IMG/VR virus record: IMGVR_UViG_3300028591_000003
Span: 32,001-96,000 of that record
Strand: one strand, 5' to 3'
Origin: a virus
Lineage: Duplodnaviria; Caudoviricetes
DNA length: 64,000 nt
Below, piece by piece: positions 11,550-62,964 of the stretch. The position numbers and the translations under genes were made by a program. A model generated the notes under the pieces. It was not told the origin of the DNA. It saw only the letters and a program-made list of their open reading frames with translations, and did no database searches. The first letter of the stretch is position 1; every line of letters begins with the position of its first letter.

Positions 11550-11561
11550 ATATAAATATTG

Positions 11562-11632
11562 CGGGGATAGGGGGAATCGAACCCTCTCCTAAAAGTTAAC
11601 AGCTTCTTGCTCGACCTTCGAGCTATATCCCC
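11562..11632 (-). tRNA. trnN: tRNA-Asn(GTT)
   Basis: AGAAG-CTGTTAA-CTTTT; TTCGATT T-loop. Confidence 0.9.
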
Positions 11633-33403: not shown

Positions 33404-33516
33404 AGAGATACTTTATAATAATCAATGCAGGATTTGAACCTGCTACTTCAATTTTAACAAAATTGCGCTCTATCCATATGAGCTAATCGATCAAAATCAG
33501 TGTTGTAAGTATCTCT
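33404..33516 (-). ncRNA. ACUUACAA-module RNA: tRNA(GTT) cloverleaf enclosed by module stem
   Basis: AGAGATACTT-ACAACA...cloverleaf...AAGTATCTCT. Confidence 0.8.
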
Positions 33517-33735
33517 ATTCTCTAAAACAAATAGCTTCAAATAAAAAAGATGATGTTTACCAGACATCATCTGTTATTTACCAAAAATCTAGAATTTAGT
33601 AAACCTATTAGTTTTCGTCACGCAACCACTAACAAAACTCGTCTCTTCATATGGTCAAGAAATAACCCCGATTTCGCTCTTACATTGCTAAATCTAGTCA
33701 CAAATTCTGTTTTACATCTAGAATTAAGATGGGTG

Positions 33736-33807
33736 CGGTCTATGACGGTTACGATCCGTCCTCACTACTGTGACAGAGTAGTATCCTAACCAATGAACGA
33801 ATAGACC
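33736..33807 (-). tRNA. trnD: tRNA-Asp(GTC)
   Basis: CTACT-CTGTCAC-AGTAG; G73. Confidence 0.9.
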
Positions 33808-33813
33808 ATTATC

Positions 33814-34401
33814 TTATAGATTTATTAAACCTTTTTCTAACATTGCATGATGATTAGGGCATAGCCAAACTAAATTATTTTCATTATTTATTTCTTTAAT
33901 TAAAGTGTCTTCTGAAAATTCTAAAATTCCTTTTATATGATGTACTTCAAGTATTTCATCAAATTCATGATTTTTACAATAAGCACAAACTTTTTCTTTA
34001 TCAGATTTTTCTAATATTTTTCTTGCGTTTTTCCTAATTTCTCCACATTTAGTTGTGAGATATTTTTGTCCTGAAATATAATATCCTAAAGTTTTTTCTC
34101 CTATTGTTCCCCTTTTCTTGTTATAACATTCCAAACATATTTCAGAATGTACATCTTTAGGCTTTCCACATATAGGACAAATCTTATTAGGATTTTTTTC
34201 ATGTATATCTGTTCTGCCTTTGTTAAAGGTTTCAGATTCATTAATTATTCTTCTTCGAGGTAATTCAATTCCTAATTTTCTAGCAACTTTTTTAATATTA
34301 CTTCCAGAACAACCATATCTTCTACCTATTTCTTCATAACTGACTTTTTCTATATTTATAAGTCTTTCTAATTCTTCTTTTTCAGAATCCCATTTTGACA
34401 T
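33814..34401 (-). CDS. free-standing HNH endonuclease (HTH + Zn ribbon + HNH)
   Basis: EEIGRRYGCS HTH; CPIC..CLEC; CAYC..EVHH..NLVWLCPNHH. Confidence 0.9.
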   Translation of the reverse strand: MSKWDSEKEELERLINIEKVSYEEIGRRYGCSGSNIKKVARKLGIELPRRRIINESETFNKGRTDIHEKNPNKICPICGKPKDVHSEICLECYNKKRGTIGEKTLGYYISGQKYLTTKCGEIRKNARKILEKSDKEKVCAYCKNHEFDEILEVHHIKGILEFSEDTLIKEINNENNLVWLCPNHHAMLEKGLINL

Positions 34402-34435
34402 ATTTACAAACGAAGGGTTTTTAATCTTCGTACTA

Positions 34436-34466
34436 TAAATATACATTTTGAGTTCGAAAAATCAAA
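34436..34466 (-). promoter_or_regulatory. sigma-A-like promoter for HNH gene
   Basis: TTTG-N19-TATATTTA. Confidence 0.5.
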
Positions 34467-34519
34467 CTTAAACTTATAAATTTAAGAAATTTTAACAATT
34501 ATAAAATAATACAATTTAG

Positions 34520-35094
34520 TACACCAGGTAGGATTCGAACCTACGACCTACTGCTTCATACTACTCTATGTTGCCATAGCCAAACAATGTCCTATTCTTA
34601 GACGATTAGATTTCCATCCTGCTAGGCATTTCACCACGCATTTTGTTTGTTGTAGTCTGGAATACATTATTACCATATTGAAATCCTTGCAAGTAACTAA
34701 GTCCGTTCATTCCCTTCTCATTTCCATCATTTCTGATTTCTCGGGTGTCTTCTTAGTAATTTCAATTTAGGTATCTCCTCTATACTCTCTACACGTTTAT
34801 AAGAAATAAGTGTCCACTCCTACAACACCTTTCGCTATATAAGCTAATGCTTCCATCATACAATACAATGGTATTTCTTAATTTAGCACGGTATTATCCT
34901 TACACATTATTGATTAGTGTTGTTAATCCTGTACTGATTTAACAGCTTAATGAGCGAATTGTTAACATCATTGCTCACACTCTTAGAAAAAGGACTTCCA
35001 CCGTTTTAGGGAGATTCTACATAGGACTTTCGTGCCCATGCATCCAATTTATTTATAGAAGGCAGTTGCTCTAATCCAGCTGAGCTACTGGTGC
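34520..35094 (-). tRNA. trnR: tRNA-Arg(TCT), exons 35057-35094 and 34520-34556
   Basis: Joined halves give ACTGC-CTTCT|AA-GCAGT. Confidence 0.9.
34557..35056 (-). mobile_element. ORF-less group I intron (500 nt) in tRNA-Arg
   Basis: U|...G| ends; P3 AUCUCC/GGAGAU; P4 ACGGU/ACCGU; homologous to the tRNA-Leu intron. Confidence 0.9.
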
Positions 35095-35098
35095 TTAA

Positions 35099-35163
35099 AA
35101 AGATACTTATTTTTATAACCATCCTATATTTATGTTTTATTAAAAATAGTTGTAAGTATCTTT
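35099..35163 (-). ncRNA. ACUUACAA-module RNA, short form
   Basis: AAAGATACTT-ACAAC...AAGTATCTTT. Confidence 0.7.
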
Positions 35164-35229
35164 ATTAACTCTGGATTATCCAAAAACTCCTCTGTTAGGG
35201 AGAGGTGAGTTAATTACTCCAGTTAATAG

Positions 35230-35305
35230 TGGACCTGGAGGGGCATGATCCCTCAACCTTCTGGTTGCAAACCAGACGTTCTAGCCAAATTAGAACTACA
35301 AGCCC
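35230..35305 (-). tRNA. trnA: tRNA-Ala(TGC)
   Basis: TCTGG-TTTGCAA-CCAGA; G3.U70. Confidence 0.9.
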
Positions 35306-35312
35306 TTAAAAG

Positions 35313-35386
35313 TGCGATCACTGGGACTCGAACCCAGGCCACACGGATTAAAAATCCGTTGCTCTAGCCTACTGAGCTATGGTCGC
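35313..35386 (-). tRNA. trnK: tRNA-Lys(TTT)
   Basis: ACGGA-TTTTTAA-TCCGT. Confidence 0.9.
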
Positions 35387-35589
35387 AACTACCCAAGTAA
35401 ATAAAATTTAAATAGTCATCCATTTTGTTTGCTTTGGGTACTACTAGTTTATACTAGGAATTTAATTGATTACTCTAGTTACTATGTGGTAATCTGGGTT
35501 ATTTTCCCTCTAACACGGATAGCTTTTAAGGTATTAACTATCAGAACTCCTTTTATTCTTTAACGAGTTCAAAGGCTTACTCGGACTAG

Positions 35590-35661
35590 TCATCGGTAAG
35601 GGAATTGAACCCTTCTTGGCAGGTTGAAAACCTGTAGTCCTAACCACTAGACGAACCGACG
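35590..35661 (-). tRNA. trnE: tRNA-Glu(TTC)
   Basis: CAGG-TTTTCAA-CCTG. Confidence 0.9.
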
Positions 35662-35665
35662 ATAC

Positions 35666-35733
35666 AAGATACTTTCAACAACTAACCTAAACAATTTACA
35701 AACTATGAAAGTAATAAAAATTGTAAGTATCTT
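35666..35733 (-). ncRNA. ACUUACAA-module RNA, short form
   Basis: AAGATACTT-ACAAT...AAGTATCTT. Confidence 0.7.
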
Positions 35734-35759
35734 ATATTATAATTATGCCAAAAAAGGAG

Positions 35760-35830
35760 TTGCGGTCGTGTGATTCGAACACCGTTTCAAGGTTATGAGC
35801 CTTGCGAGCTACCATTGCTCCACCACCGCG
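35760..35830 (-). tRNA. trnfM: initiator-type tRNA-fMet(CAT)
   Basis: C1:A72 mismatch; CAAGG-CTCATAA-CCTTG. Confidence 0.8.
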
Positions 35831-36022
35831 ATATTAAAAAAGAATATTTGACATTACATAACGCTCTATGTATTCAATTGTTATGTTCTAAGAGTAATTT
35901 CACTTGTGCACAACTTTATAGTTACTCTCACCGGGTATTATGAGGCTTGATTCGCGAAAAACCCATAACTCTAACGGCAGTCTTTACCTTAGTTAGAGGG
36001 TCTTAAATATTCTTTTATGAGA

Positions 36023-36146
36023 AAGTTACTTAATAAATATTTGCATTAAACCACTATGCTAATCCGCAAACATGGAGCAGATAATGGATTCGAACCACTG
36101 ATACTTTTTTAAGTATAATATTTTTAACTAATATTGTAAGTAACTT
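36023..36146 (-). ncRNA. ACUUACAA-module RNA, circularly permuted tRNA (YrlA-like topology)
   Basis: Module stem, T-arm GGTTCGAATCC, acceptor ATCTGC/GCGGAT closed by a loop, D-arm GCATAGTGGTTTAATGC, closing strand. Confidence 0.82.
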
Positions 36147-36150
36147 ATAG

Positions 36151-36221
36151 TTGGAGATAGAGGAGTCGGACCTCTCTAATCAGGACCAAAATCTGAGGCA
36201 TTACCGCTATGCTAATCTCCA
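36151..36221 (-). tRNA. trnQ: tRNA-Gln(TTG)
   Basis: U1-A72; loop TTTTGGT. Confidence 0.88.
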
Positions 36222-36303
36222 ATTTACTACTACTTTTCATCTCGTGAGTAGCCAACGAGTGTTAAAACAGTTTAAATAGTTTATTAATGTCATCACGACA
36301 TCG

Positions 36304-36884
36304 TACGACAGGCGGGGATCGAACCCGCAAGATCTCTACAGACCTGAGGGATTTTCTTACCACTCTATGTTACCATAGCCAAACAAACACATTTTGTCGT
36401 TTAAAGCCGAGCAAGTTCTTAACTTCCATCTGATTTCACCCTTCAAAGAAGTTAATGCAGGCTTTTGTTTGTTGTGGTCTGGACTGTCTCTTTACCATAT
36501 TGAAATTCTTGCAAGTTCGTGACTTATCTCTATATATTGAGGGTTATCAAAAACCATTTTCTTTTGTCCTTATAAATTTCAACTTAGGTATCTCCCGTTC
36601 AGTCTCTACACGATTATAAGAAAAATATTCCTAAGAATATGGGTTGGGAATCGAACCCAACTTTACGCACCCGTAGGTGCACAGGATACCATTACCTGCC
36701 TACACTTCTTATTTTCGCTCGGTATAGTCCTACACATTATTTGTTAGTGTACAGTATTGGATTAAATTATGCACTGCTTTCACCTCAAGGATTTCCACCG
36801 AATTTAGGAGATTCTACTATGGGATTTCTCGCCATAGCACTCAATTTTCTAAGTCCCTTGTGTACACCATTCCACCACTGTCGC
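36304..36884 (-). tRNA. trnL: tRNA-Leu(TAA), exons 36851-36884 and 36304-36355
   Basis: Joined halves give AGGGA-CTT|AAAA-TCCCT with long variable arm. Confidence 0.9.
36356..36850 (-). mobile_element. ORF-less group I intron (495 nt) in tRNA-Leu anticodon
   Basis: U|...G|; P1 ACUU|A / UGAGU; R element AGAGACUG; S element AAGAGACAGUCC. Confidence 0.92.
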
Positions 36885-36886
36885 AT

Positions 36887-36968
36887 TTGAGATACTTAAA
36901 TTTATCTTTTACCAACACGTTGTTCCTATATTTATGTTTAATTAAATAAATATTTATAAGTATCTCAA
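36887..36968 (-). ncRNA. ACUUA(C/U)AA-module RNA, short form
   Basis: TTGAGATACTT-ATAAAT...AAGTATCTCAA. Confidence 0.7.
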
Positions 36969-37022
36969 GATGAACGTAAATAAATTTATTACTTAATTTT
37001 TAAAATCTATAGTTAAAAGATG

Positions 37023-37247
37023 TTAAATCAGTTTAGATAGATTCTGTTTTATGCTAGCGATTTCAGTCTTTAATCGTTCACATTCTTCATTATAACTACG
37101 TCCTTTATGATAGATAGTTCTACCATTTCGTGTTGAAGTCCAAGGTTTCTTGTCTTCACCAGCAGCTTTAAATTTTTCGTAAACTACTTCCAACCTTTGT
37201 AGTGCCATTCTTCTACGGACTACAATATTTCCTTTTCCTTTTGACAT
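37023..37247 (-). CDS. basic hypothetical protein
   Basis: 74 aa ORF. Confidence 0.65.
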   Translation of the reverse strand: MSKGKGNIVVRRRMALQRLEVVYEKFKAAGEDKKPWTSTRNGRTIYHKGRSYNEECERLKTEIASIKQNLSKLI

Positions 37248-37250
37248 ATT

Positions 37251-37550
37251 TTAAAAATGTTTTGTTATTAATTTATAAGAATAGTTATCAAATTTTCTCA
37301 TACATTTAGATTCAAATTTAAAAACTTTCTTAATTTCTTCTTCACTCATTCTAACAGACATATGTACTCTGTAAAATTTATCCCAAGAAAAAAGTCTATG
37401 TTTTATGACTTTAAATTTAATATTGTATCCATTCTCTTTAAAAATATCTGGAATAGAGAAAAGCATTCTGTCTTTAATAGAGTAATTCGGATTAGTCCCG
37501 ATATAATCGTAATAATCCTGAACTGTAAAAGCAATTCTATATTTTTCCAT
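37251..37550 (-). CDS. hypothetical protein
   Basis: 99 aa ORF. Confidence 0.65.
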   Translation of the reverse strand: MEKYRIAFTVQDYYDYIGTNPNYSIKDRMLFSIPDIFKENGYNIKFKVIKHRLFSWDKFYRVHMSVRMSEEEIKKVFKFESKCMRKFDNYSYKLITKHF

Positions 37551-37798
37551 TAAATATATTCTATGATCGTTGTTACTTTTTTAATTTCTATAGTATATTC
37601 TATAATAGTATGAAAATAATCATTATCTGGATAAGTATCATATTTATACTTATGAGTTTTAATGATTTCTTCAATATCATCTTCTTTAGGATTTAGTTTT
37701 TCCCATAAAGGAGCAAATTGTTGTTTAAAATAACGATGTCTCCATAATTGGAAATTATCATCATTAATACATTTAACAAAATATTCAACTTTTTCCAT
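37550..37798 (-). CDS. hypothetical protein
   Basis: 82 aa ORF; AACAATATG start context. Confidence 0.7.
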   Translation of the reverse strand: MEKVEYFVKCINDDNFQLWRHRYFKQQFAPLWEKLNPKEDDIEEIIKTHKYKYDTYPDNDYFHTIIEYTIEIKKVTTIIEYI

Positions 37799-38076
37799 AT
37801 TGTTTGTTGTTTGTTTAAAAATAAGAAGTGCGTTTCACAACGGACTTCTTTCTTGTAGATGAAAAGCCACTGCTTCTCCATAAATTTTAAAAATTTGAAT
37901 TAGTTCTATTATGATTTTCAATTACATTTTCAAAAAATTTTTCACTATCCTCACTTCCTTTAGAATCTAATCGCAGAACTTTCGACCTTAGAAGATATAC
38001 CAACGTACCCACCCAGGTTGAATAGGAAAACCACACTATTTTTAACGCGTATATTATTAGTGTGTAAAATAAATAG

Positions 38077-38209
38077 TCGGGGGACCAGGAATCGAACCTG
38101 GGACTTAGATTTATGAAATCCTTATTTTATTATGCTTTAAGATGTTGTAGGTATCAAAATGATACTAATGCTTTTATTTTCTTACATGTTACCACTACAC
38201 CATCCCCCA
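38077..38209 (-). ncRNA. tRNA scaffold with module in anticodon-arm position
   Basis: GGGGGA/TCCCCC acceptor, D-arm, TAAGA[..GTATC-ATTTT-GATAC-CTACAACA]TCTTA, T-arm CCAGG-TTCGATT-CCTGG. Confidence 0.78.
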
Positions 38210-38218
38210 TATAATAAA

Positions 38219-38350
38219 TCGGAAGGAGAGTTGGACTCGAACCAACAACACTTTGTTTAATAGACAAATACTCTAACCTCTTGAATTTATTAAATTATAA
38301 GTAACTCACGAAATTACTAGAATCAATTTTTATGTTGAGTTATCCGGCCA
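38219..38350 (-). ncRNA. tRNA(ATT)-like scaffold with module in D-loop
   Basis: ACTC..[AGTAATT-TCGTG-AGTTACT-TATAAT]..GGTTAGAGT; TTTGT-CTATTAA-ACAAA; T-arm; degenerate acceptor. Confidence 0.75.
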
Positions 38351-38496
38351 ATTTAATCCAAACTCTGTACAGAAACAGTTTCTTTCTTCATTATAGGTGC
38401 GTGTTATCCTAATTTTTACAGATTCAATGAAACTACCTACGTTTAGTTACATTATATCTGACCGCCAATTTCAATATCGCTGTTAGTTTGGATTAG

Positions 38497-38613
38497 TGGA
38501 GGGAGCAGGAATCGAACCTACATTATAGTCATTTTACGCATGATTAGAAATTTACTATGATTGAATGGTAAGTATCATATGATACTCGTCGTTACCAATA
38601 TTTCAATCCCTCC
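38497..38613 (-). ncRNA. tRNA scaffold with module in D-loop
   Basis: GGAGGGA/TCCCTCC-A; GAAAT[..GG..AGTATC-ATAT-GATACT-TACCAT..]ATTTC; T-arm. Confidence 0.75.
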
Positions 38614-38688
38614 AAATTAAAATTAGTAATCTATCTTCACAGACCAATTACTACTGTCAAACCTTAAAAAACATAACAAATTATGCAG

Positions 38689-38806
38689 CGGGGAGTACAA
38701 GAGTCGAACTTGCACTTCTGGAAAATCCCAGAAATTATGAAAGATGTTTTTGTAAGTAATAATTTACTACTCAACATAATCGGGCTTAACCATGCCCAAA
38801 CTCCCC
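38689..38806 (-). ncRNA. class-II tRNA scaffold with module replacing the anticodon loop
   Basis: GGGGAGT/ACTCCCC; ATTATG[..AGTAGTA-AAT-TATTACT-TACAAA..]CATAAT; long variable arm; T-arm. Confidence 0.8.
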
Positions 38807-38810
38807 TAAT

Positions 38811-38916
38811 TAAGATACTAGAAAATACATCTTGGAATCGAACCAAGTACACTCGGCGTTACGGCTGATGCTCTAACCAAATGAGCTAATGTGGTTATAT
38901 TATTGTAAGTATCTTA
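38811..38916 (-). ncRNA. ACUUACAA-module RNA enclosing a degenerate cloverleaf
   Basis: TAAGATACT-TACAATA..D-arm GCTCATTTGGTTAGAGC..T-arm CTTGG-TTCGATT-CCAAG..AGTATCTTA. Confidence 0.8.
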
Positions 38917-38974
38917 TTCGTCTCAAATAAAGAAATTATGATGCAGTTTTTCTTTTATCTGATGCACATCTAAA

Positions 38975-39367
38975 TCATTTTATACTATCATTTTTATTAA
39001 TAGACCAACTATCTACCCATTTGTCTAAAGCTTTTATACATTTATCTGGAAGTTGTTTTGCAGTTGGATTTGATTTAACATAATCAATAGTTCCACCAAC
39101 TCCATAAATAAGAAGTGCTTGATTTGTTGTAGGAATAAATATTTCTCCTAGACAGCAAACAAAGAAAATAGGTATTGTAAACCTAAGAATTTTAATTGAC
39201 AATTTTTGATACATTTTGTATTCAGTACGTTGGTCCTCAACTTCATTGCAATAGTTTACTAAATATACTATAAAAAATGCTATAGAAAGAATAATACTAG
39301 TAACAAGGAATATTGTTAAAACAGTACTGATTGAATCAAATCTTGTAATCCAATAAATTTCATTCAT
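38975..39367 (-). CDS. two-TM membrane protein
   Basis: YWITRFD, two hydrophobic helices, FIPTT. Confidence 0.78.
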   Translation of the reverse strand: MNEIYWITRFDSISTVLTIFLVTSIILSIAFFIVYLVNYCNEVEDQRTEYKMYQKLSIKILRFTIPIFFVCCLGEIFIPTTNQALLIYGVGGTIDYVKSNPTAKQLPDKCIKALDKWVDSWSINKNDSIK

Positions 39368-39386
39368 ATTATTAAATTTGTTTAAA

Positions 39387-39452
39387 AGGATACTAAAAAT
39401 GTCCCAATTAAAAGTTAGGTGCTTACTAGCAATTTAGTATTATAAGTATCCT
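39387..39452 (-). ncRNA. ACUUA(C/U)AA-module RNA, short form
   Basis: AGGATACT-TATAATA...AGTATCCT. Confidence 0.65.
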
Positions 39453-39483
39453 ATTTATTATGAAAGTAATTATTATAAAGTAA

Positions 39484-39604
39484 AAGTTACTTAGTAAAAA
39501 ACGTTGCTCTAAACCAAGCTGAGCTATCCCGAAACCCTCAGGAGTTGGATTTGAACCAACGACACACGGCTTACAAAGCTGATTCTTGATATTGTAAGTA
39601 ACTT
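39484..39604 (-). ncRNA. ACUUACAA-module RNA, circularly permuted tRNA (YrlA-like topology)
   Basis: AAGTTACTT-ACAATA..T-arm GTTGG-TTCAAAT-CCAAC, TCCTGA-loop-TCGGGA, D-arm GCTCAGCTTGGTTTAGAGC..AAGTAACTT. Confidence 0.82.
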
Positions 39605-39611
39605 AATTAGA

Positions 39612-39642
39612 AACTAGAGGAGGAATCGAACCTCCTCTAGTC
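39612..39642 (-). other. tRNA minihelix-like hairpin
   Basis: ACTAGAGGAGG-TTCGATT-CCTCCTCTAGT. Confidence 0.6.
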
Positions 39643-39661
39643 GTGATGCTTATTAAAAAAA

Positions 39662-41521
39662 TCAAAGGGTATTTGCTCTCACGAGTTCATACCTATTGCT
39701 TCTATAGAGACTCAACAGTGGAGTATAGACATCAAAGACATCCATATCCTTGAAGTTAGTCAGGAATTGCTCAATCATTGCTGGATTCGAAGGTATGTAC
39801 ATCATGTTGTCAATTCCACTAAATCGGTCTGCTCCAGCACTAGCACGAGAGCCAACAGCACCAGTAACATCCATAAGGATTACGTAAGGACGGAATCCAA
39901 AGAACCCCTCACACTGACGGAAGAAATCGTTCATACTCGCCTCTGGTGAATACATATTATTGAACATACCATCAGACATGATTGTCCATACAGGATAGTT
40001 ACGAAGAGCATCCTTAATCTCAGGATTTGCCTGACAAGCCTGGTTCAATCCCTTAGGAATACATGAAATATCAGTATTCCATCCCTGGAACTTACTTTGA
40101 AGGAAAGCAGAAATCCTCTTGTAATTATCCAGGAAACTAAGTTTAGGATCAACGAATGGTTGTGCCTTAGTCTTAGCTACCTTACTTCTTAAGATTGAGT
40201 TCTGAGATGTAGCCTGAGAATCAATGTAAGAATAGAAACGAGATGTTCCATCAAACATACCAACGAGATTACGAGCATCATCATCGGGATTCTTAACCAT
40301 ACATACTGCAGTAATAAAGGCAGCAAATCTGAATGGTGTACCACTCATAGAACCAGAACTGTCAATAATGGTCAGTGAATTATAAGGAAGATTAACCTTA
40401 TTCATAAAGGACTCAATCTTCAACTTATCAATTGTGCCACTAAGAATCTGGTTGTAGAGTTCAGTAAAGTTAGTAGCACCAATTGTTACCTTGGCCTCTT
40501 TCTTCACTTTCTCCAATTTAACCTTATCCTCCTCACTAGCCTGACCTTGACGAACCTTCTCTTCCAGAATACGTTGTTCTTGTTGCTTCTGCTCCTTATA
40601 AGTTTCCCATTCCTTGATCCAAGGCTGGAACTTAGCCCACTTAGATACTTCTGCAATAGCTACATTAGACTTTCCATCCAATCCAGCTGTCTCACAGTCT
40701 GCACCTACTACCTTGGAATAGAGGATTCTGTTCTTAACCCTGAACCTAGCCTGAGATGGGAGCTTGTCAAACCAGTCGATGAATTGCTGCTTGTCAAACT
40801 CATTTATCTTGCCAGTAGAGAAAAGTACAGATTCAAGAGAGCCATTGTACTGCTTTCGCCACTCACGATAACCCTTAAAATATTCCAGTTCCCATCCCAT
40901 CATCTTAGAGAGTTCAGTTAAGAAGTTCTTTTTCTCATTCATTACCTGAATAGTCTCAGGAAGAACTCTCTTATGACCTTGACGCTTACTGGTTCTTGGG
41001 ATAGTCAAGAACTTGGCAATCAATGTCTTATTGAACGGATTAGAACCGTTAATCACAGCATATGTATAGTCAAGAAGAGCCTTCACATACTCTTTATCTT
41101 GAAATGCATGATATATTTTCAGTACCTTCGAACCCTTAGTTTGAACTCGATTACGGAACAAAACATCAAAGCATGTATACTCATTAAAGAGTTGTGCATT
41201 TAAAAACTTGATGAATTGTTTCTTATCTTTTTTCCAAAGCCAGGTTGTGATAGTATAGAAAGCCTCACGATTGGCATTACCACCACTGTCAACCTTCTTC
41301 TTTTTAAAGATGTTGTGCTGACGATTAGTAATGTCTCCAATAGAGAACAGGATTGAGAAGAAAAGTTCTCTCTTTTCTTTAGAGTTCTTTACTTCAAGCC
41401 ATGCATCATTCAGAAGAACCTCTGAAATAACTGCATCAGTTGATGCCTGCTGAAGTTGCAGACATCTGCGAAGTCCGTAAAACGGATTGTTACTTTTTTT
41501 ATTAAGTTCTACTTGTACCAT
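39662..41521 (-). CDS. DUF2828/TROVE(Ro60)-like helical domain plus vWA domain protein
   Basis: MIDAS IIDSSGSM...NTD...MSDGMF; N-terminal pattern AW...LF...DI...GG...RE.F, AKF...PR, KLPSQA recognised by eye as DUF2828-like. Confidence 0.75.
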   Translation of the reverse strand: MVQVELNKKSNNPFYGLRRCLQLQQASTDAVISEVLLNDAWLEVKNSKEKRELFFSILFSIGDITNRQHNIFKKKKVDSGGNANREAFYTITTWLWKKDKKQFIKFLNAQLFNEYTCFDVLFRNRVQTKGSKVLKIYHAFQDKEYVKALLDYTYAVINGSNPFNKTLIAKFLTIPRTSKRQGHKRVLPETIQVMNEKKNFLTELSKMMGWELEYFKGYREWRKQYNGSLESVLFSTGKINEFDKQQFIDWFDKLPSQARFRVKNRILYSKVVGADCETAGLDGKSNVAIAEVSKWAKFQPWIKEWETYKEQKQQEQRILEEKVRQGQASEEDKVKLEKVKKEAKVTIGATNFTELYNQILSGTIDKLKIESFMNKVNLPYNSLTIIDSSGSMSGTPFRFAAFITAVCMVKNPDDDARNLVGMFDGTSRFYSYIDSQATSQNSILRSKVAKTKAQPFVDPKLSFLDNYKRISAFLQSKFQGWNTDISCIPKGLNQACQANPEIKDALRNYPVWTIMSDGMFNNMYSPEASMNDFFRQCEGFFGFRPYVILMDVTGAVGSRASAGADRFSGIDNMMYIPSNPAMIEQFLTNFKDMDVFDVYTPLLSLYRSNRYELVRANTL

Positions 41522-41992
41522 TGTTTTAAATTTATTATTTGTAAGTAACTAATTAAATAAATTTCCTACATCTGTTTTATAGCAATTAACTCGTTCAATC
41601 TACTAAAGAGATTCTACTAAAGTGCAGATTCTCACTGCTTTTCTATTTTACAGTCTCCATCACGTTGCTTTACGTATCACAATGACCTCAATCACATGTT
41701 TGCCACTACAAGGTCTTTCAACTGTCAATTCAGTATGCCCATTGAAGGTTCAATATTGGAATTCCCTTCAGCCCTCGGAAATTTATTATAAATTAAAATA
41801 CTATCTAACGCTATAAACGCAGGAGTTGGCAACACCCTTTTCTCCCTAGCATAAGTTAATATGCCTCCAATTCGACCAATAGATAGTATTTTATCTGAAA
41901 AAGAGTGGCTTCGAGCGGTTTTATCTCTACTTCACCCGCGCTATAGTTTCCGCACACGTGGTTCCGGTATCAAGCTTCACTCTTATTCTTGT

Positions 41993-42430
41993 TTAGTTGA
42001 ACTCTTCCGTAGAATCCATAGCAGCAAGCTCTGCCTCCATCTCCTTAATACGATCCTCAGGAGTTTTGGTGGACTCTTTAAGTTCAGCGAGCTTCTCAGT
42101 AAGCTCTGCCTTCTTACGGCGACTCTCTGCGAGTTCAAGATGGTAGCGCTTGAAACCTACAATGAGATTTACAAGTTCCTTCATCTCCTTGAGAGAATCG
42201 AGTTCAGTAGTGTTAACTTCTACCCATTCATCCTTGTTCTCAAGATTCTGAATCTTAGTTGAAAGACCAGCCTTGATATTGTTCAGGGTGTTAATACTTG
42301 TTGTGTGAATCAACTCTACAATGTTAAGTGGAGCACCCATTTTAGTAGAGATTGTACTGTTTGTCATGAGCATCTTAAGAGCAAGCTCACACATCTTGCT
42401 GTAATGCTCTTTTGTGAAATTTATTTTCAT
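41993..42430 (-). CDS. coiled-coil hypothetical protein
   Basis: 145 aa; GC-richer codon usage like the vWA gene. Confidence 0.8.
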   Translation of the reverse strand: MKINFTKEHYSKMCELALKMLMTNSTISTKMGAPLNIVELIHTTSINTLNNIKAGLSTKIQNLENKDEWVEVNTTELDSLKEMKELVNLIVGFKRYHLELAESRRKKAELTEKLAELKESTKTPEDRIKEMEAELAAMDSTEEFN

Positions 42431-52700: not shown

Positions 52701-52776
52701 TGGGGCGTAGTCGAGCGGCTTCAGACTGGAGACTCTAAATCTCTGCATTACGCGGGTTCGAATCCTGCCACCCCAA
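52701..52776 (+). tRNA. amber suppressor tRNA(CTA), probably Gln-accepting
   Basis: GGAGA-CTCTAAA-TCTCT; U1-A72, G2-C71, G3-C70 as in tRNA-Gln. Confidence 0.92.
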
Positions 52777-52793
52777 CTAGACGTAAATGAATT

Positions 52794-60070: not shown

Positions 60071-60622
60071 ATGAATTTAAATGTTTTTGATTATGATTAG
60101 AGAACTGGAAAAGTAATTCTCAATTCAGCGGATCTTGCTCTTATTGATGAATTTAAAACAATCATTAAAAGAGATAAAGATCGTGCTGATAGAGAATTTA
60201 CTTATATATATTTAGCAATTGATTGGAAATCTCCTTATAATGGATATTCAGAACAAGAGAGACATGAAGCAGCATTACAAGATGCTCATATTACTGAAGA
60301 AGAATGGAATGATCCTTCTTTTAGAGCAGCTTGTAGAAAATACAGAGCATTACAAGAGTCTAATCGTTACGTAAGACTTCTTAAATCTGCTGAATTGGTA
60401 ACTGATAAAATTATCGATTATTTTAATAATGTAGATTTAGAAGAACGTGATGAACAAACTGGTAAATATGTTAATAAAGTAGCTGATATACAAAAAGCTA
60501 TGGAAAACGCTTCTAAACAAATAGAAACATTAAAAATGATAGAATCTCTTGTTAAGAAAGAAATTGCTGAACAAAGTCAGATTCGTGCTGGAGCTACAGA
60601 AGGATTTGTTCCTGATTTTTAA
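60071..60622 (+). CDS. protein upstream of terminase (possible small subunit); TAG=Gln
   Basis: 183 aa through one TAG; stop overlaps the terL start. Confidence 0.7.
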
Positions 60623-62964
60623 TGGAAGAACAAATTAAAAAGAAAAGAGGTAGACCTCGTAAAAATCCTATTCTCCCTGAAGAAATTTAGTCTTTAGTAA
60701 ATGAAGTTCAAGAAAAAAGTTAGTAGCTCCAAAAAGAAACAATAGTTAAAGAAGAAATTCGTTCTAAAGAAGGCGAATGGGATGTTAAAATAAATGATTC
60801 TATTGAATATTTTGATAAAAGATTATCTTATGAAATAACAGGCTATAGACCTATTACAGAAACACAAGGATTAGATTTTGATCCAAGTTGGTTTACTGAA
60901 GCTAGAGATAATAAAATAAAAACTGGACATTATACATCTTATTATTTTGGTTCAAAAGCATATAGAGATTTTTGGAATCAAGAATATAAAAGATGTAGAG
61001 AAGGAATGACAGTTAACGGATATACAATTCCTGGAACATATTATTATTTTCTTAATTATTATCAATTGCCTCAGACTGAAGTTAAAAAACTTGGTACTAG
61101 TCGTTCTGATATATTTCCAGAGTTCTATACTGCTCAATATGAGTTTTTTCATTATTTTGAATTATGTAAAATACTTAAAAAAGATGTTTGTATGTTTAAA
61201 TCTAGAGGTATAGGTTTTAGTGAGATAAATGCTGCTATTTGTGATTAGATTTATAACTGTTATCCTAATTCAGTATGTATGATTTCAGCATTTGCTTAGA
61301 ATTATGTTGATAAATCTCTTGATAAAGTATGGGGAGGTCTTACATTTGCAAATGATAATACAGATGGAGGATTCTTTAAACTTCGACAAGTACTTGACAA
61401 ACAAATGATTAAGAAAGCTTCTTATTATAAAATAGTAAATGGACAAAAAATTGAAGATGGATGGATGTCTATGATTGAAGCAATTGTTGCTGATAATGAT
61501 AGAAAAATTCGTGGTGATCGTGTAGATTTATTAGTATATGAAGAAGCTGGATCTAATCCTGTTTTAAGAAAATCTTATATTAAAGGTAATGCTCTAGTAG
61601 AAATTGGAGGTAACAGGTTTGGTATTAGAGTCGTTGGCGGTACTGGTGGTGATGTTGATGGGCTTGAAGGATTATCTGATATGTTTTATAATCCAGAATC
61701 TTACAACATTTTACCCTTTCTTAATAACTATACTGAAGATGGAGAATGGGTAAAAACTGCATTTTTTATTCCAGCTAATATTGCTTTCTATAGAGATGGT
61801 TATGTAGACAAAAGAGGAGTTTGCGATATAAAGAAAACTACAGAATTTTATATGAATGAAAGAGCTAAACTTGAAGCTACTCCAAAAGCTTTAGTAGACT
61901 ATAAAGCAGAATATTGTCTATATCCATCTGAAGCATTTGCTCTTGAAGGACAAAACAATTTTAATAAAGTAAAATTAGTAGAACAAATATCTGCAATTAA
62001 GTTTAAAAAAGCAATTGTTCCAAATATCGAAAGAGGATATATGGAATTTGTATATAGTGATCCAAATCACAAAAGAGATAGTATTAAAGGAGTCAGATTT
62101 AAGCCACATCCGAATGGACCTGTTTATATATTGCAACATCCTCTTTGGGAAATCCCAACAGGATAGGATATAGAACCTGGTGAAACAGATGAAGAATATT
62201 CTTACAGAAAATCATCAGAAGAACAAGTAGCTTATAGTAAAATGAATAATTTGTATGTAGCAGGAATAGACGGAATTGATTTAGGATAGGAAGATACTTC
62301 TGATTATACTAAAAATCCATCTAAATTTTGTACTGTTATTAAAAGAAGAGTTCATGGAATGAAAGAGCCTATGTATGTAGCATATTATTTAGATAGACCT
62401 TAGCGAATAGAAGAAGCTTATGAGTAGACTCTAGCATTAATGTATTATTATAATGCTAAAGGAAATATAGAAGCGTCTAAAGTCGGAGTTTTAACTTGGG
62501 CTAAAAAAGAAAAATGGATTAATTACTTTATGCGAAGACCAAGAGTATGTTCCGGTGATCCAGCTAAAAGACCTTCTGGTAATGCACCTTATGGAACAAC
62601 GACTGCTGTTGCTATGATATAGCATGGACTAGATTTAATAGCTTCATATATAGAAGAATATTTTCATAATATATGGTTTTTAGATATGCTAAATTAGTTT
62701 CTTAAATATTCTTACGAGAATAAAGGAAAGTTCGATATTGTAGCAGCTTGTTAGATGGCTGAAATTGCAGATGAAGAACTATCTGAATTAGTTCCAGTAT
62801 AGGTTAAAGAAGCTAAACGAAAATTTTAGGATATTGGATATTATAAAGATAAAAATGGATATACTCGTTTTGGAATAATTCCAAGATAGGAAGAATAGAA
62901 AATTCAAGTTAAATGGGATAATTCTGATGGAGGAAATAGAAATAGTAATCCTGAATATAGATGA
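60622..62964 (+). CDS. terL: terminase large subunit; TAG=Gln
   Basis: 780 aa through about 16 TAG; KSRGIGFS, LLVYEEAG, GGTGG, YVAGIDGID. Confidence 0.92.

What the first reader, a model, noticed from the sequence alone, without database searches (positions are those of the whole stretch)
33404..41555. Candidate new RNP system: Ro60/TROVE-like vWA protein plus an array of 12 RNAs sharing one module grafted onto tRNA scaffolds
Seen: a module made of a 5-11 bp helix (consensus strand AG[A/U]UACU) followed by unpaired UACAA (variants UAUAA, UACCA) recurs at 33404, 35099, 35666, 36023, 36887, 38077, 38219, 38497, 38689, 38811, 39387 and 39484. All lie on the strand of, and downstream of, the 619 aa vWA gene. 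The helix covaries (GAUAC/GUAUC versus GUUAC/GUAAC). The module encloses a cloverleaf, closes a permuted tRNA, sits in a D-loop or anticodon arm, or stands alone. Established: Ro60 (TROVE plus vWA) binds Y RNAs through a terminal stem, and bacterial YrlA RNAs carry a tRNA-like domain. Inference: this protein binds the module and displays varied tRNA mimics, for example as decoys against anticodon nucleases or as adaptors for RNA repair or decay. I do not know of a described system with this motif or this range of topologies.
Basis: partly seen in the sequence, partly recalled or inferred. Interest (0 to 1): 0.97.

Follow-up and report, generated by a model that had tools for sequence, protein, structure and literature searches.

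The report
Phage Ro60-like protein with handle-tagged tRNA mimics
A 176-kb crAss-like rumen phage and over 80 relatives encode a hidden relative of the RNA-binding ring protein Ro60, followed by up to 14 small RNAs that carry one short conserved handle on whole, rearranged or partial tRNA shapes; the same handle also wraps the protein's own start codon, so the protein probably controls its own synthesis.

Summary
The motif GWTACYTAYMA occurs 13 times in the window against 0.9 expected. Twelve copies lie on the minus strand at 33503-41549. The whole 176-kb genome has only 14. In 80 related metagenome loci it occurs 354 times on the gene strand and 8 times on the other.

Its first five bases form a covarying helix, GNNAC pairing with GUNNC. 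Five sequence types each have their own complement. The unpaired UUACAA is invariant.

The cargo is of three main kinds:
- permuted, YrlA-like tRNA bodies; one matches Rfam YrlA at 39 bits, below threshold
- normal cloverleaves
- small D-arm plus anticodon-arm RNAs

The 619-aa protein matches no Pfam family. Its whole model has Ro60/Rsr/TROVE as the top ten Foldseek hits, and it has an intact vWA MIDAS. The N-domain alone matches only generic HEAT repeats.

One point is new here. A handle copy sits 20-55 nt upstream of the ATG in every locus. Its partner AGUAAC lies inside codons Ser-Asn and is always AGT-AAC.

My reading is a divergent Ro60/Y-RNA-type particle with a new handle, an RNA array and autoregulation. 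Binding and function are untested. The scan noted the same family before on other DNA.

The parts
39662..41521 (-). 619-aa Ro60-like protein: N-terminal helical-repeat domain (about residues 1-375) and C-terminal vWA domain with MIDAS (D387-x-S389-x-S391, T483, D517)
   Evidence: AlphaFold model has pLDDT 84.7 and pTM 0.78. Foldseek top 10 are all Ro60/Rsr/TROVE, E 8e-6 to 4e-4. VIA gives Z 11.7/11.4/10.7 with about 390 residues aligned. The MIDAS residues are invariant in 50 homologs down to 23% identity. No Pfam hit.
41489..41549 (-). Operator-like handle enclosing the gene's start codon: GUUACUUACAA at 41549-41539, ATG at 41521-41519, partner AGUAAC at 41494-41489 (codons Ser-Asn)
   Evidence: Present in every related locus with upstream sequence. 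60 of 61 unique versions have a partner. All 57 in-CDS partners are in frame as AGT-AAC, although AAC is 33% of Asn codons and AGT 29% of Ser codons gene-wide. The helix alone is weak, -3.4 kcal/mol.
39618..39650 (-). GC-rich hairpin with a T-loop-like loop directly after the stop codon (3' end or minihelix element)
   Evidence: Read. The same hairpin follows the stop codon in many related loci.
39484..39604 (-). Handle RNA 1: YrlA-type permuted tRNA mimic (handle, V hairpin, T arm, acceptor stem closed by a loop, D arm, handle)
   Evidence: Rfam YrlA at 39 bits, E 2e-7, model positions 1-114. Consensus fold of 11 orthologs has compensatory changes in the T arm and acceptor hairpin.
39387..39452 (-). 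Handle RNA 2: short form with a D-arm-like hairpin and an anticodon-like stem-loop (loop CUUUUAA)
   Evidence: MFE fold. A conserved subclass in relatives shows covariation in the anticodon-like stem.
38811..38915 (-). Handle RNA 3: handle enclosing a degenerate cloverleaf
   Evidence: Rfam tRNA at 34.5 bits for 38823-38895. 9-bp partner. Fold.
38685..38806 (-). tRNA-like body (acceptor, D arm, long variable arm, T arm) with a handle-like local hairpin plus UUACAA in place of the anticodon arm (variant AUUACUUACAA)
   Evidence: Fold z -5.69. ACTTACAA at 38750-38757.
38497..38613 (-). tRNA-like body with an internal hairpin-type handle (GUAUC-loop-GAUAC, then UUACCA)
   Evidence: Motif at 38566-38576. 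Fold shows acceptor stem, T arm and handle hairpin.
38219..38350 (-). Motif copy GUUACUUAUAA (38295-38305) ahead of a partial tRNA (anticodon arm plus T arm); structure uncertain
   Evidence: Rfam partial tRNA at 38230-38287. Fold not better than shuffles, z -0.75.
38077..38209 (-). tRNA-like body with an internal hairpin-type handle (GUAUC-loop-GAUAC, then CUACAA)
   Evidence: Motif at 38145-38155. Fold z -2.25 with acceptor stem, T arm and handle hairpin.
36887..36967 (-). Handle RNA: short form, directly upstream of an insert-bearing tRNA-Leu(UAG) gene
   Evidence: 11-bp partner. Fold z -4.30.
36023..36146 (-). Handle RNA: second permuted tRNA mimic (hairpin, T arm, closed acceptor stem, D arm)
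   Evidence: 9-bp partner. Fold z -3.00. Orthologs in many loci.
35666..35733 (-). Handle RNA: short form, abutting the 5' end of tRNA-Glu
   Evidence: 12-bp partner. Fold z -2.84.
35099..35162 (-). Handle RNA: short form, directly upstream of an insert-bearing tRNA-Arg(UCU) gene
   Evidence: 10-bp partner. Fold z -3.24.
33404..33515 (-). Handle enclosing a complete tRNA-Asn(GUU) cloverleaf, a second Asn(GUU) copy besides 11561-11632
   Evidence: ARAGORN and Rfam tRNA at 58.9 bits. 10-bp partner. Fold z -2.75.
41993..42430 (-). Conserved upstream neighbour: 145-aa helical/coiled-coil protein with an acidic C-terminus ending in ...EEF; possible but unproven part of the system
   Evidence: Present upstream of the Ro-like gene in 32 of 33 long loci, with 57 unique versions. 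No known family.

Best explanation
This is a divergent Ro60/Y-RNA-type ribonucleoprotein system of crAss-like phages.

The proposed mechanism:
- The 619-aa protein has a helical-repeat domain plus a vWA domain with an intact MIDAS. I infer that it binds a short RNA handle.
- The handle is a 7-10 bp helix whose 5' strand reads G-N-N-A-C-U, followed at the cargo-side junction by unpaired UACAA.
- The handle is either the closing helix of a small RNA or, capped by a loop, an internal hairpin of a tRNA-like body. Both forms leave the cargo at the same end of the helix.
- The cargo is a panel of tRNA shapes: YrlA-like permuted tRNAs, permuted tRNAs that keep an anticodon arm, whole cloverleaves, and D-arm plus anticodon-arm minis.
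- The particle would therefore present tRNA mimics to tRNA-binding factors of the host or phage.
- A further handle encloses the start codon of the protein's own mRNA. Once free protein accumulates, it can clamp this weak helix and shut off its own translation.

Status of each step:
- Shown: the handle, its covariation, its strand and position linkage to the gene, the cargo classes, and the fold-level resemblance to Ro60.
- Inferred: protein-handle binding, autoregulation, and the downstream role. I favour sequestering or tethering tRNA-directed enzymes, such as host anticodon nucleases or exoribonucleases.
For: Handle statistics and genome-wide restriction to the gene's neighbourhood.

Linkage to the gene:
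- 354 copies on the gene strand against 8 on the other in 80 loci. Almost every locus has one copy just upstream of the ATG, one after the stop codon, and an array downstream.
- In an IMG/VR pattern scan, every locus with three or more same-strand copies either carries the gene or lies on a contig that has it. The one exception is a 5.4-kb fragment too short to tell.
- A homolog at 47% identity keeps the same motif.

The helix is real:
- 93% of copies have a partner, against 36% of control GWTAC sites.
- Five covarying helix types.
- Unbiased shuffle test.

Y-RNA character:
- Sub-threshold but full-length YrlA match.
- Compensatory changes in the T arm and acceptor hairpin.
- 48 permuted, 45 normal-order and 109 short cargo forms among 236 unique modules.

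Protein:
- Ro60/Rsr/phage Ro60 are the top whole-chain matches.
- MIDAS is invariant.
- 21 invariant Arg/Lys/His residues in the N-domain.

Operator:
- 60 of 61 versions are paired, always through AGT-AAC codons.
- The early (+21 to +27) and late (+51) partner sites are almost mutually exclusive (39 early only, 15 late only, 1 with both).
- The helix is marginal without a protein.

Published precedent:
- Ro60 recognises mainly the 5' strand of a terminal helix (PMC4201824, citing Stein 2005).
- YrlA lies within 4 kb of the Ro60 gene on the same strand (PMC4201824).
- A phage Ro60 binds two phage-encoded Y-like RNAs (PMC12135203).
Against: - No sequence-level link to TROVE, DUF2828 or DUF7788. 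The PDB profile search gave only insignificant hits, E >= 0.06.
- The N-terminal domain modelled alone (pLDDT 77.7) matches only generic HEAT/ARM proteins at Z <= 6.6, with no Ro60 in the top 50. The ring is therefore not shown.
- Whole-chain TM-scores to Ro60 are low, 0.23-0.37 normalised to the query and 0.27-0.46 to the target. The VIA Z for Ro60 is no higher than for vWA-only proteins.
- The canonical GNCGAA / CGAA Ro-binding motif is absent.
- Nothing here measures binding.
- RNA-library contigs cover the array only at low depth, and DNA carry-over cannot be excluded.
- A second conserved protein (145 aa) sits next to the gene and could be the binder instead.
Confidence: 0.6

Rival explanations
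1. The handle is an RNA processing or maturation signal of the tRNA operon. On this view, an endonuclease, perhaps with a ligase, recognises the helix plus UUACAA. It would release or re-join tRNA bodies, so that permuted and handle-flanked genes mature into working tRNAs. It would also process the mRNA 5' end. The vWA protein would be a chaperone or unrelated.
For: - Handles flank genuine-looking tRNAs: 48 ARAGORN tRNAs in relatives and tRNA-Asn here.
- Short handle RNAs abut the 5' ends of tRNA genes.
- Permuted forms that keep all four arms exist.
- M. smegmatis YrlA is cut by RNase P and receives CCA (PMC4201824).
Against: - No RNA ligase, kinase or splicing endonuclease was found in the window.
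- Most tRNAs of both arrays lack handles.
- The acceptor hairpin of element 1 has 6 bp, not 7.
- 109 of 236 modules carry no tRNA body at all.
- The anticodon loop of one permuted class changes freely between close relatives, which is odd for a decoding tRNA.
- The handle-enclosed Asn(GUU) is redundant with a free copy.
- The strict linkage to this one gene and its start codon is not explained.
Confidence: 0.15
2. The handle is a real RNA element, but it is bound by another factor: the conserved 145-aa neighbour or a host protein. The vWA protein would have a different role, for example as a MIDAS-mediated protein adaptor.
For: - The 145-aa gene is as tightly linked as the handle, in 32 of 33 loci.
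- The Ro60 assignment rests on fold resemblance only.
- vWA/MIDAS domains usually bind proteins.
Against: - The handle encloses the start codon of the vWA gene, not that of the 145-aa gene.
- The 145-aa protein is acidic and coiled-coil, with no RNA-binding features.
- The helical-repeat plus vWA architecture with an adjacent YrlA-like RNA fits Ro60 systems.
Confidence: 0.12
3. The repeats act at the DNA level, as phage promoters (TACAAT resembles a -10 box) or as terminal inverted repeats of small mobile cassettes. They would not form an RNA helix.
For: - The motif contains TACAAT or TATAAT in many copies.
Against: - Five helix types each have their own complement, and there is flank covariation.
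- Hairpin forms have 3-8 nt loops.
- Strand bias is 354 to 8.
- A partner is kept inside a coding sequence by codon choice and moves between two alternative sites.
- A promoter would leave the 5' arm untranscribed.
Confidence: 0.04

Closest known systems
Bacterial and phage Ro60 (Rsr) with YrlA/YrlB Y RNAs (Chen et al. 2014, PMC4201824; Rfam RF02553)
   Same: - A helical-repeat plus vWA/MIDAS protein.
- Small RNAs on the same strand within a few kb.
- At least one RNA has a T arm, a closed acceptor-like hairpin and a D arm inside a stem formed by the RNA's two ends.
- A short conserved motif on the 5' strand of that stem.
- More than one Y RNA per locus.
   Different: - The protein is invisible to the TROVE Pfam model.
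- The handle is GNNAC-UUACAA instead of GNCGAA.
- There are up to 14 handle RNAs rather than 1-3.
- The cargo includes whole cloverleaves, permuted tRNAs with anticodon arms, and minis.
- The handle can sit inside a tRNA body as a capped hairpin.
- A handle encloses the protein's own start codon.
- No RtcB/RtcA genes are nearby.
Thermus phage phiLo Ro60 with Yrl1/Yrl2 (PMC12135203; PDB 9KOP, 9L5Y)
   Same: - A phage-encoded Ro60-type protein with phage-encoded partner RNAs next to the gene.
- It is among the best structural matches: Foldseek E 2e-4 and VIA Z 10.7 with 388 residues aligned.
   Different: - phiLo Ro60 is a recognisable TROVE protein, and its Yrl RNAs carry the CGAA motif in a bulge.
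- It has two RNAs and no tRNA panel.
- No operator in its own mRNA has been reported.
Autoregulated RNA-binding proteins whose mRNA mimics their RNA target (e.g. ribosomal proteins L1, S8, L20; phage T4 RegA, MS2 coat)
   Same: A copy of the protein's RNA target covers its own translation start, which gives feedback repression.
   Different: This is an analogy of logic only. It is inferred here from conservation and has not been described for Ro60 proteins in the papers I could search.
DUF2828/DUF7788 proteins (Pfam PF11443, PF25043)
   Same: Language-model neighbours of this protein include viral clusters in which 10-57% of members carry these domains. One distant family member has a weak DUF7788 hit at E 0.015.
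   Different: Neither HMM matches this protein or this genome. No function is published for these families.

Membership tests
Ro60 / TROVE (Pfam PF05731) | Sequence match to the TROVE domain model | tested here: not met
   - No Pfam hit for the protein or for any of 50 family members at E 0.01.
- PF05731 finds nothing in the whole genome at E 10, while the control genomes ring.
- Profile search against PDB gives Ro60/TROVE chains only at E 0.06-1, over the MIDAS region.
Ro60 / TROVE (Pfam PF05731) | Architecture: N-terminal alpha-helical HEAT-type repeats followed by a C-terminal vWA domain with MIDAS | tested here: met
   - Secondary structure and model.
- DxSxS, T and D are invariant.
- Ro60/Rsr/TROVE chains fill Foldseek ranks 1-10 over about 630 alignment columns.
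- VIA Z 11.7/11.4/10.7, rmsd 5.7-5.9, 388-396 residues aligned across residues 12-614.
Ro60 / TROVE (Pfam PF05731) | Helical repeats closed into a ring with a central cavity | tested here: inconclusive
   - The N-domain modelled alone (pLDDT 77.7) gives only generic HEAT/ARM matches: Foldseek E >= 0.07 and VIA Z <= 6.6, with Ro60 not among the 50 rows.
- Whole-chain TM-scores are 0.23-0.37 normalised to the query and 0.27-0.46 to the target.
Ro60 / TROVE (Pfam PF05731) | Binds Y RNA through a terminal stem | not testable with these tools
   Only indirect evidence: handle linkage to the gene and to its start codon.
YrlA (Rfam RF02553) | Score at or above the family's gathering threshold (69 bits) | tested here: not met
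   39.0 bits, E 2.2e-7, full model 1-114, at 39472-39590. The other handle RNAs have no YrlA match.
YrlA (Rfam RF02553) | T arm, acceptor-like stem closed by a loop, and D arm, in that order, inside a stem made by the RNA's ends | tested here: met
   - Alignment to the model.
- Consensus fold of 11 orthologs: 9 of 25 pairs have compensatory changes.
- 48 such permuted forms in relatives.
YrlA (Rfam RF02553) | GNCGAA(N)G motif near the 5' end (proposed Rsr contact) | tested here: not met
   - The conserved 5' motif is GNNAC-UUACAA.
- The model's CgaA positions align to a non-conserved AGAA.
YrlA (Rfam RF02553) | Encoded within about 4 kb of, and on the same strand as, the Ro60 gene | tested here: met
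   Element 1 starts 58 nt after the stop codon. The same arrangement holds in relatives.
DUF2828 / DUF7788 (PF11443, PF25043) | Sequence match to either model | tested here: not met
   No match in the genome at E 10. The only signals are a language-model neighbourhood and one weak hit in a distant member.

The most novel reading that the evidence does not exclude
A large clade of gut and rumen crAss-like phages makes a self-limiting Ro60-like particle that displays a library of tRNA look-alikes. These include forms whose anticodon loops change quickly between relatives. The library would act as decoys or sponges for host tRNA-targeting defence enzymes, so this would be an RNA-based counter-defence built on a Y-RNA chassis.
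Probability: 0.22. Interest if true: 0.9.

Novelty: new variant of a known kind. Interest (0 to 1): 0.78.

Why it matters
Ro60/Y-RNA particles are conserved from bacteria to humans, and the job of their tRNA-like modules is still unknown.

This system offers a natural experiment:
- One protein family, undetectable by standard domain models, is found in more than 1,200 metagenome proteins.
- A short handle is defined by strong covariation.
- Dozens of different tRNA-shaped cargoes are attached at different points.

That makes several things directly testable:
- The binding code, by swapping handle bases.
- The cargo's partners, by pull-downs with different mimics.

It also gives the first sequence-level sign I know of that a Ro60-type protein regulates its own translation through a copy of its RNA target.

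The carriers are crAss-like phages, among the most abundant viruses of animal guts. No paper I could search mentions such a system in them.

Tried and rejected
I could therefore not fetch the contigs of distant homologs (below 45% identity) to ask whether the handle changes with the protein.
- The search for related loci in IMG/VR with two distant homologs found nothing.
- Diverse alignments had no stretch conserved enough to search with.
- tblastn of the protein and of two distant homologs against GenBank phages (INPHARED) found nothing.
- Complex prediction of the Ro-like protein with the 145-aa neighbour gave no answer (score 0.00). This is evidence neither for nor against binding.
- The N-domain-only fold search did not recover Ro60.
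- Counting G-U against A-C pairs, to tell RNA-level from DNA-level pairing, gave too few cases to decide.
- Laying metatranscriptome contigs cannot show RNA ends, strand or level. The array is covered in two sheep RNA libraries at low depth, and DNA carry-over cannot be excluded. One stretch, 37455-37731, had no RNA-library cover.
- Rfam found no family for the two large inserts in tRNA genes, even in a 600-base search.
- Pfam and PHROGs found no RNA-repair enzyme among about 25 neighbouring ORFs.

Full report
**Context**

The window is bases 32001-96000 of a complete 176,443-bp virus record with direct terminal repeats. It is AT-rich and carries 24 tRNA genes in two arrays, including a suppressor tRNA(CUA). 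A terminase gene is readable only if TAG is translated. Earlier notes of this scan call it a crAss-like phage. Sequencing runs that hold it come from sheep, goat and cattle gut. Everything in the finding lies on the minus strand.

**Observation**

The motif:
- GWTACYTAYMA occurs 13 times in the window against 0.91 expected, with no shuffle reaching 13.
- Twelve copies lie on the minus strand between 33503 and 41549.
- The whole genome has 14 copies, 12 of them in this 8-kb stretch.

Pairing in the window:
- Eight copies pair with a 9-12 bp complement 45-106 nt downstream. Each such element folds with that helix as its closing stem, with z from -1.6 to -4.3.
- Four copies pair with a complement a few bases upstream and form a capped hairpin. 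Three of these sit inside bodies with an acceptor stem and T arm. The fourth, at 38215-38350, is not supported by folding.
- The two forms are topologically the same. In both, the cargo leaves the helix at the end that carries UUACAA.

**Relatives**

The 619-aa protein has more than 1,262 homologs in metagenomes and none in GenBank phages. I fetched 80 loci at 59-81% identity. Many lie on contigs of 96-104 kb or 124-183 kb, from rumen and human gut.

Motif distribution in these loci:
- 354 copies on the gene strand and 8 on the other.
- Almost every locus has one copy 20-55 nt before the ATG, one just after the stop codon, and up to 14 in all, nearly all downstream.

Evidence that the helix is real:
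- 93% of copies have a Watson-Crick partner for the five helix bases within 250 nt, against 36% of control sites.
- Bases 2 and 3 vary, and the partner follows:

| 5' strand | Partner | Copies with own partner |
|---|---|---|
| GAUAC | GUAUC | 154/162 |
| GUUAC | GUAAC | 117/151 |
| GACAC | GUGUC | 28/29 |
| GUCAC | GUGAC | 29/29 |
| GCUAC | GUAGC | 22/26 |

- With partners picked without using the variable bases, pairing at base 2 is 0.88 against 0.52 in shuffles. The two flanking pairs also covary.
- G1, A4, C5, the following U and the unpaired UACAA stay fixed. This is the pattern of a helix read by a protein.

A pattern scan of IMG/VR returned mostly single chance hits. Every locus with three or more same-strand copies either holds the gene or lies on a contig that does. 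The one exception is a 5.4-kb fragment that is too short to tell. One of the gene-bearing loci has a homolog at only 47% identity.

**Cargo**

Among 236 unique closing-helix modules:
- 109 enclose fewer than 70 nt and have no T loop.
- 48 have the T arm first, so they are circularly permuted.
- 45 have it last, so they are normal cloverleaves.
- ARAGORN tRNAs with many different anticodons.

The permuted class:
- The element right after the gene (39484-39604) matches Rfam YrlA over the full model, at 39 bits against a threshold of 69.
- Eleven orthologs show compensatory changes in the T arm and in the acceptor-like hairpin.
- Other permuted subclasses also keep an anticodon arm. In one of them the loop reads GUG, GUA, GCA, CAA or others in close relatives while the stem stays constant.

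A conserved short subclass, which includes 39387-39452, has a D-arm-like hairpin and an anticodon-like stem-loop with loop CUUUUAA.

**Protein**

- No Pfam, PHROG function or PDB sequence match.
- TROVE, DUF2828 and DUF7788 models find nothing in the genome.
- The vWA MIDAS residues are invariant across 50 homologs down to 23% identity.
- The AlphaFold model is good, with pLDDT 84.7.
- Its ten best Foldseek matches in the PDB are all Ro60, Rsr or phage TROVE proteins, aligned over the whole chain at E 8e-6 to 4e-4. vWA-only proteins follow.
- An independent aligner puts Ro60, Rsr and phage phiLo Ro60 at Z 10.7-11.7 with about 390 residues aligned. These are the only rows that clearly align both domains, the others aligning under 200 residues.
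- The caveat is that the N-domain modelled alone recovers only generic HEAT/ARM repeats.

I therefore call the protein Ro60-like in architecture and probably homologous. I do not call it a demonstrated TROVE ring.

**The operator**

The copy upstream of the gene is always the GUUAC type. Its partner AGUAAC (or AGUAAU, with a G-U pair) lies in one of three places in the 61 unique versions:

| Partner site | Versions |
|---|---|
| +21 to +27 in the coding sequence | 41 |
| +51 in the coding sequence | 16 |
| Just before the ATG | 5 |

These counts overlap slightly. One version has both the early and late sites, one has a partner both before the ATG and early in the coding sequence, and one version has no partner.

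- The early and late in-CDS sites are almost mutually exclusive: 39 have the early site only, 15 the late site only, and 1 has both.
- All 57 in-CDS partners are in frame as Ser-Asn, spelled AGT-AAC.
- Gene-wide, AAC is 33% of Asn codons and AGT is 29% of Ser codons. The spelling is therefore held by selection on the RNA.
- The helix is worth only -3.4 kcal/mol by itself, no better than shuffles. That fits a switch which needs a protein clamp.

The simplest reading is feedback repression by the encoded protein. This in turn is the best indirect evidence that this protein binds the handle.

**Comparison with what is known**

- Ro60 orthologs with YrlA RNAs were reported for 254 bacteria and 22 phages, found through TROVE-annotated genes (PMC4201824).
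- There the proposed contact is GNCGAA on the 5' strand.
- A phage Ro60 binds two Yrl RNAs and host PNPase (PMC12135203).
- The present system shares the logic and one RNA class.
- It differs in the handle sequence, the size and variety of the RNA set, internal handle insertion, the operator, and a protein outside the TROVE model.
- I found no paper linking crAss-like phages with Ro60 or Y RNAs.
- The scan itself noted the same family before on another gut phage (e1-1940142), and analogous handle-tagged arrays beside Ro60-like genes in other phages (e1-272486, e1-5935525).

**Expression**

- Contigs identical to parts of the gene and the array occur in two sheep-gut RNA libraries at depths similar to each other.
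- Contigs cannot show RNA ends or exclude DNA carry-over.
- I count this as weak support only.

**Verdict**

Protein-handle binding, autoregulation and any decoy role are inferences that simple experiments can test.

Noticed in passing
window 34545-35084 and 36305-36886, minus strand: Two tRNA genes, Arg(UCU) and Leu(UAG), are each split in the anticodon loop by a related insert of about 480-500 nt. For the Arg gene the 5' exon ends in U and the insert ends in G, which looks like a group I intron. Rfam has no match. In three gut metatranscriptome assemblies the summed contig depth over the inserts is 2,900-29,000, against about 5-50 for the neighbours. In a DNA run it is 290-610 against about 45. 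So this RNA family is widespread and very abundant in rumen samples.
   Followed up: partly
window 33814-34446, minus strand: A 210-aa ORF with an HNH endonuclease domain lies just downstream of the insert-bearing tRNA-Arg gene. It is probably a free-standing homing endonuclease.
   Followed up: no
window 41893-41983, minus strand: A conserved structured RNA of about 90 nt lies between the 145-aa gene and the Ro-like gene. It has an outer stem GAGUG/CACUC, conserved internal loops and a variable hairpin. It is present in the 124-183 kb relatives and absent in the ~100-kb ones, where the 145-aa gene runs up to the handle. No Rfam family matches.
   Followed up: partly
window 41993-42430, minus strand: The 145-aa coiled-coil protein is conserved upstream of the Ro-like gene in 32 of 33 long loci. 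Its C-terminus is acidic and nearly always ends in ...EEF or ...EDF, like the partner-binding tails of SSB-type proteins. A tail that docks on the vWA MIDAS is conceivable but untested.
   Followed up: partly
related loci, e.g. L023:13897-14010, L028:8877-8989, L032:3519-3635, L071:4742-4859: In one orthologous class of permuted tRNA mimics, the anticodon-like loop differs between close relatives (GUG, GUA, GCA, CGA, CAA, ACA) while the stem and the rest of the RNA are conserved.
   Followed up: no
window 52701-52777 (+) and 60622-62964 (+): There is a suppressor tRNA with anticodon CUA. The terminase large-subunit gene has 16 in-frame TAG codons, so late genes use TAG as a sense codon. The Ro-like gene has none.
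   Followed up: no
window 39618-39650, minus strand, and the same place in many loci: A 10-11 bp GC-rich hairpin with a T-loop-like UUCGAUU loop follows the stop codon of the Ro-like gene. Some relatives have a different GC-rich hairpin at the same place.
   Followed up: no
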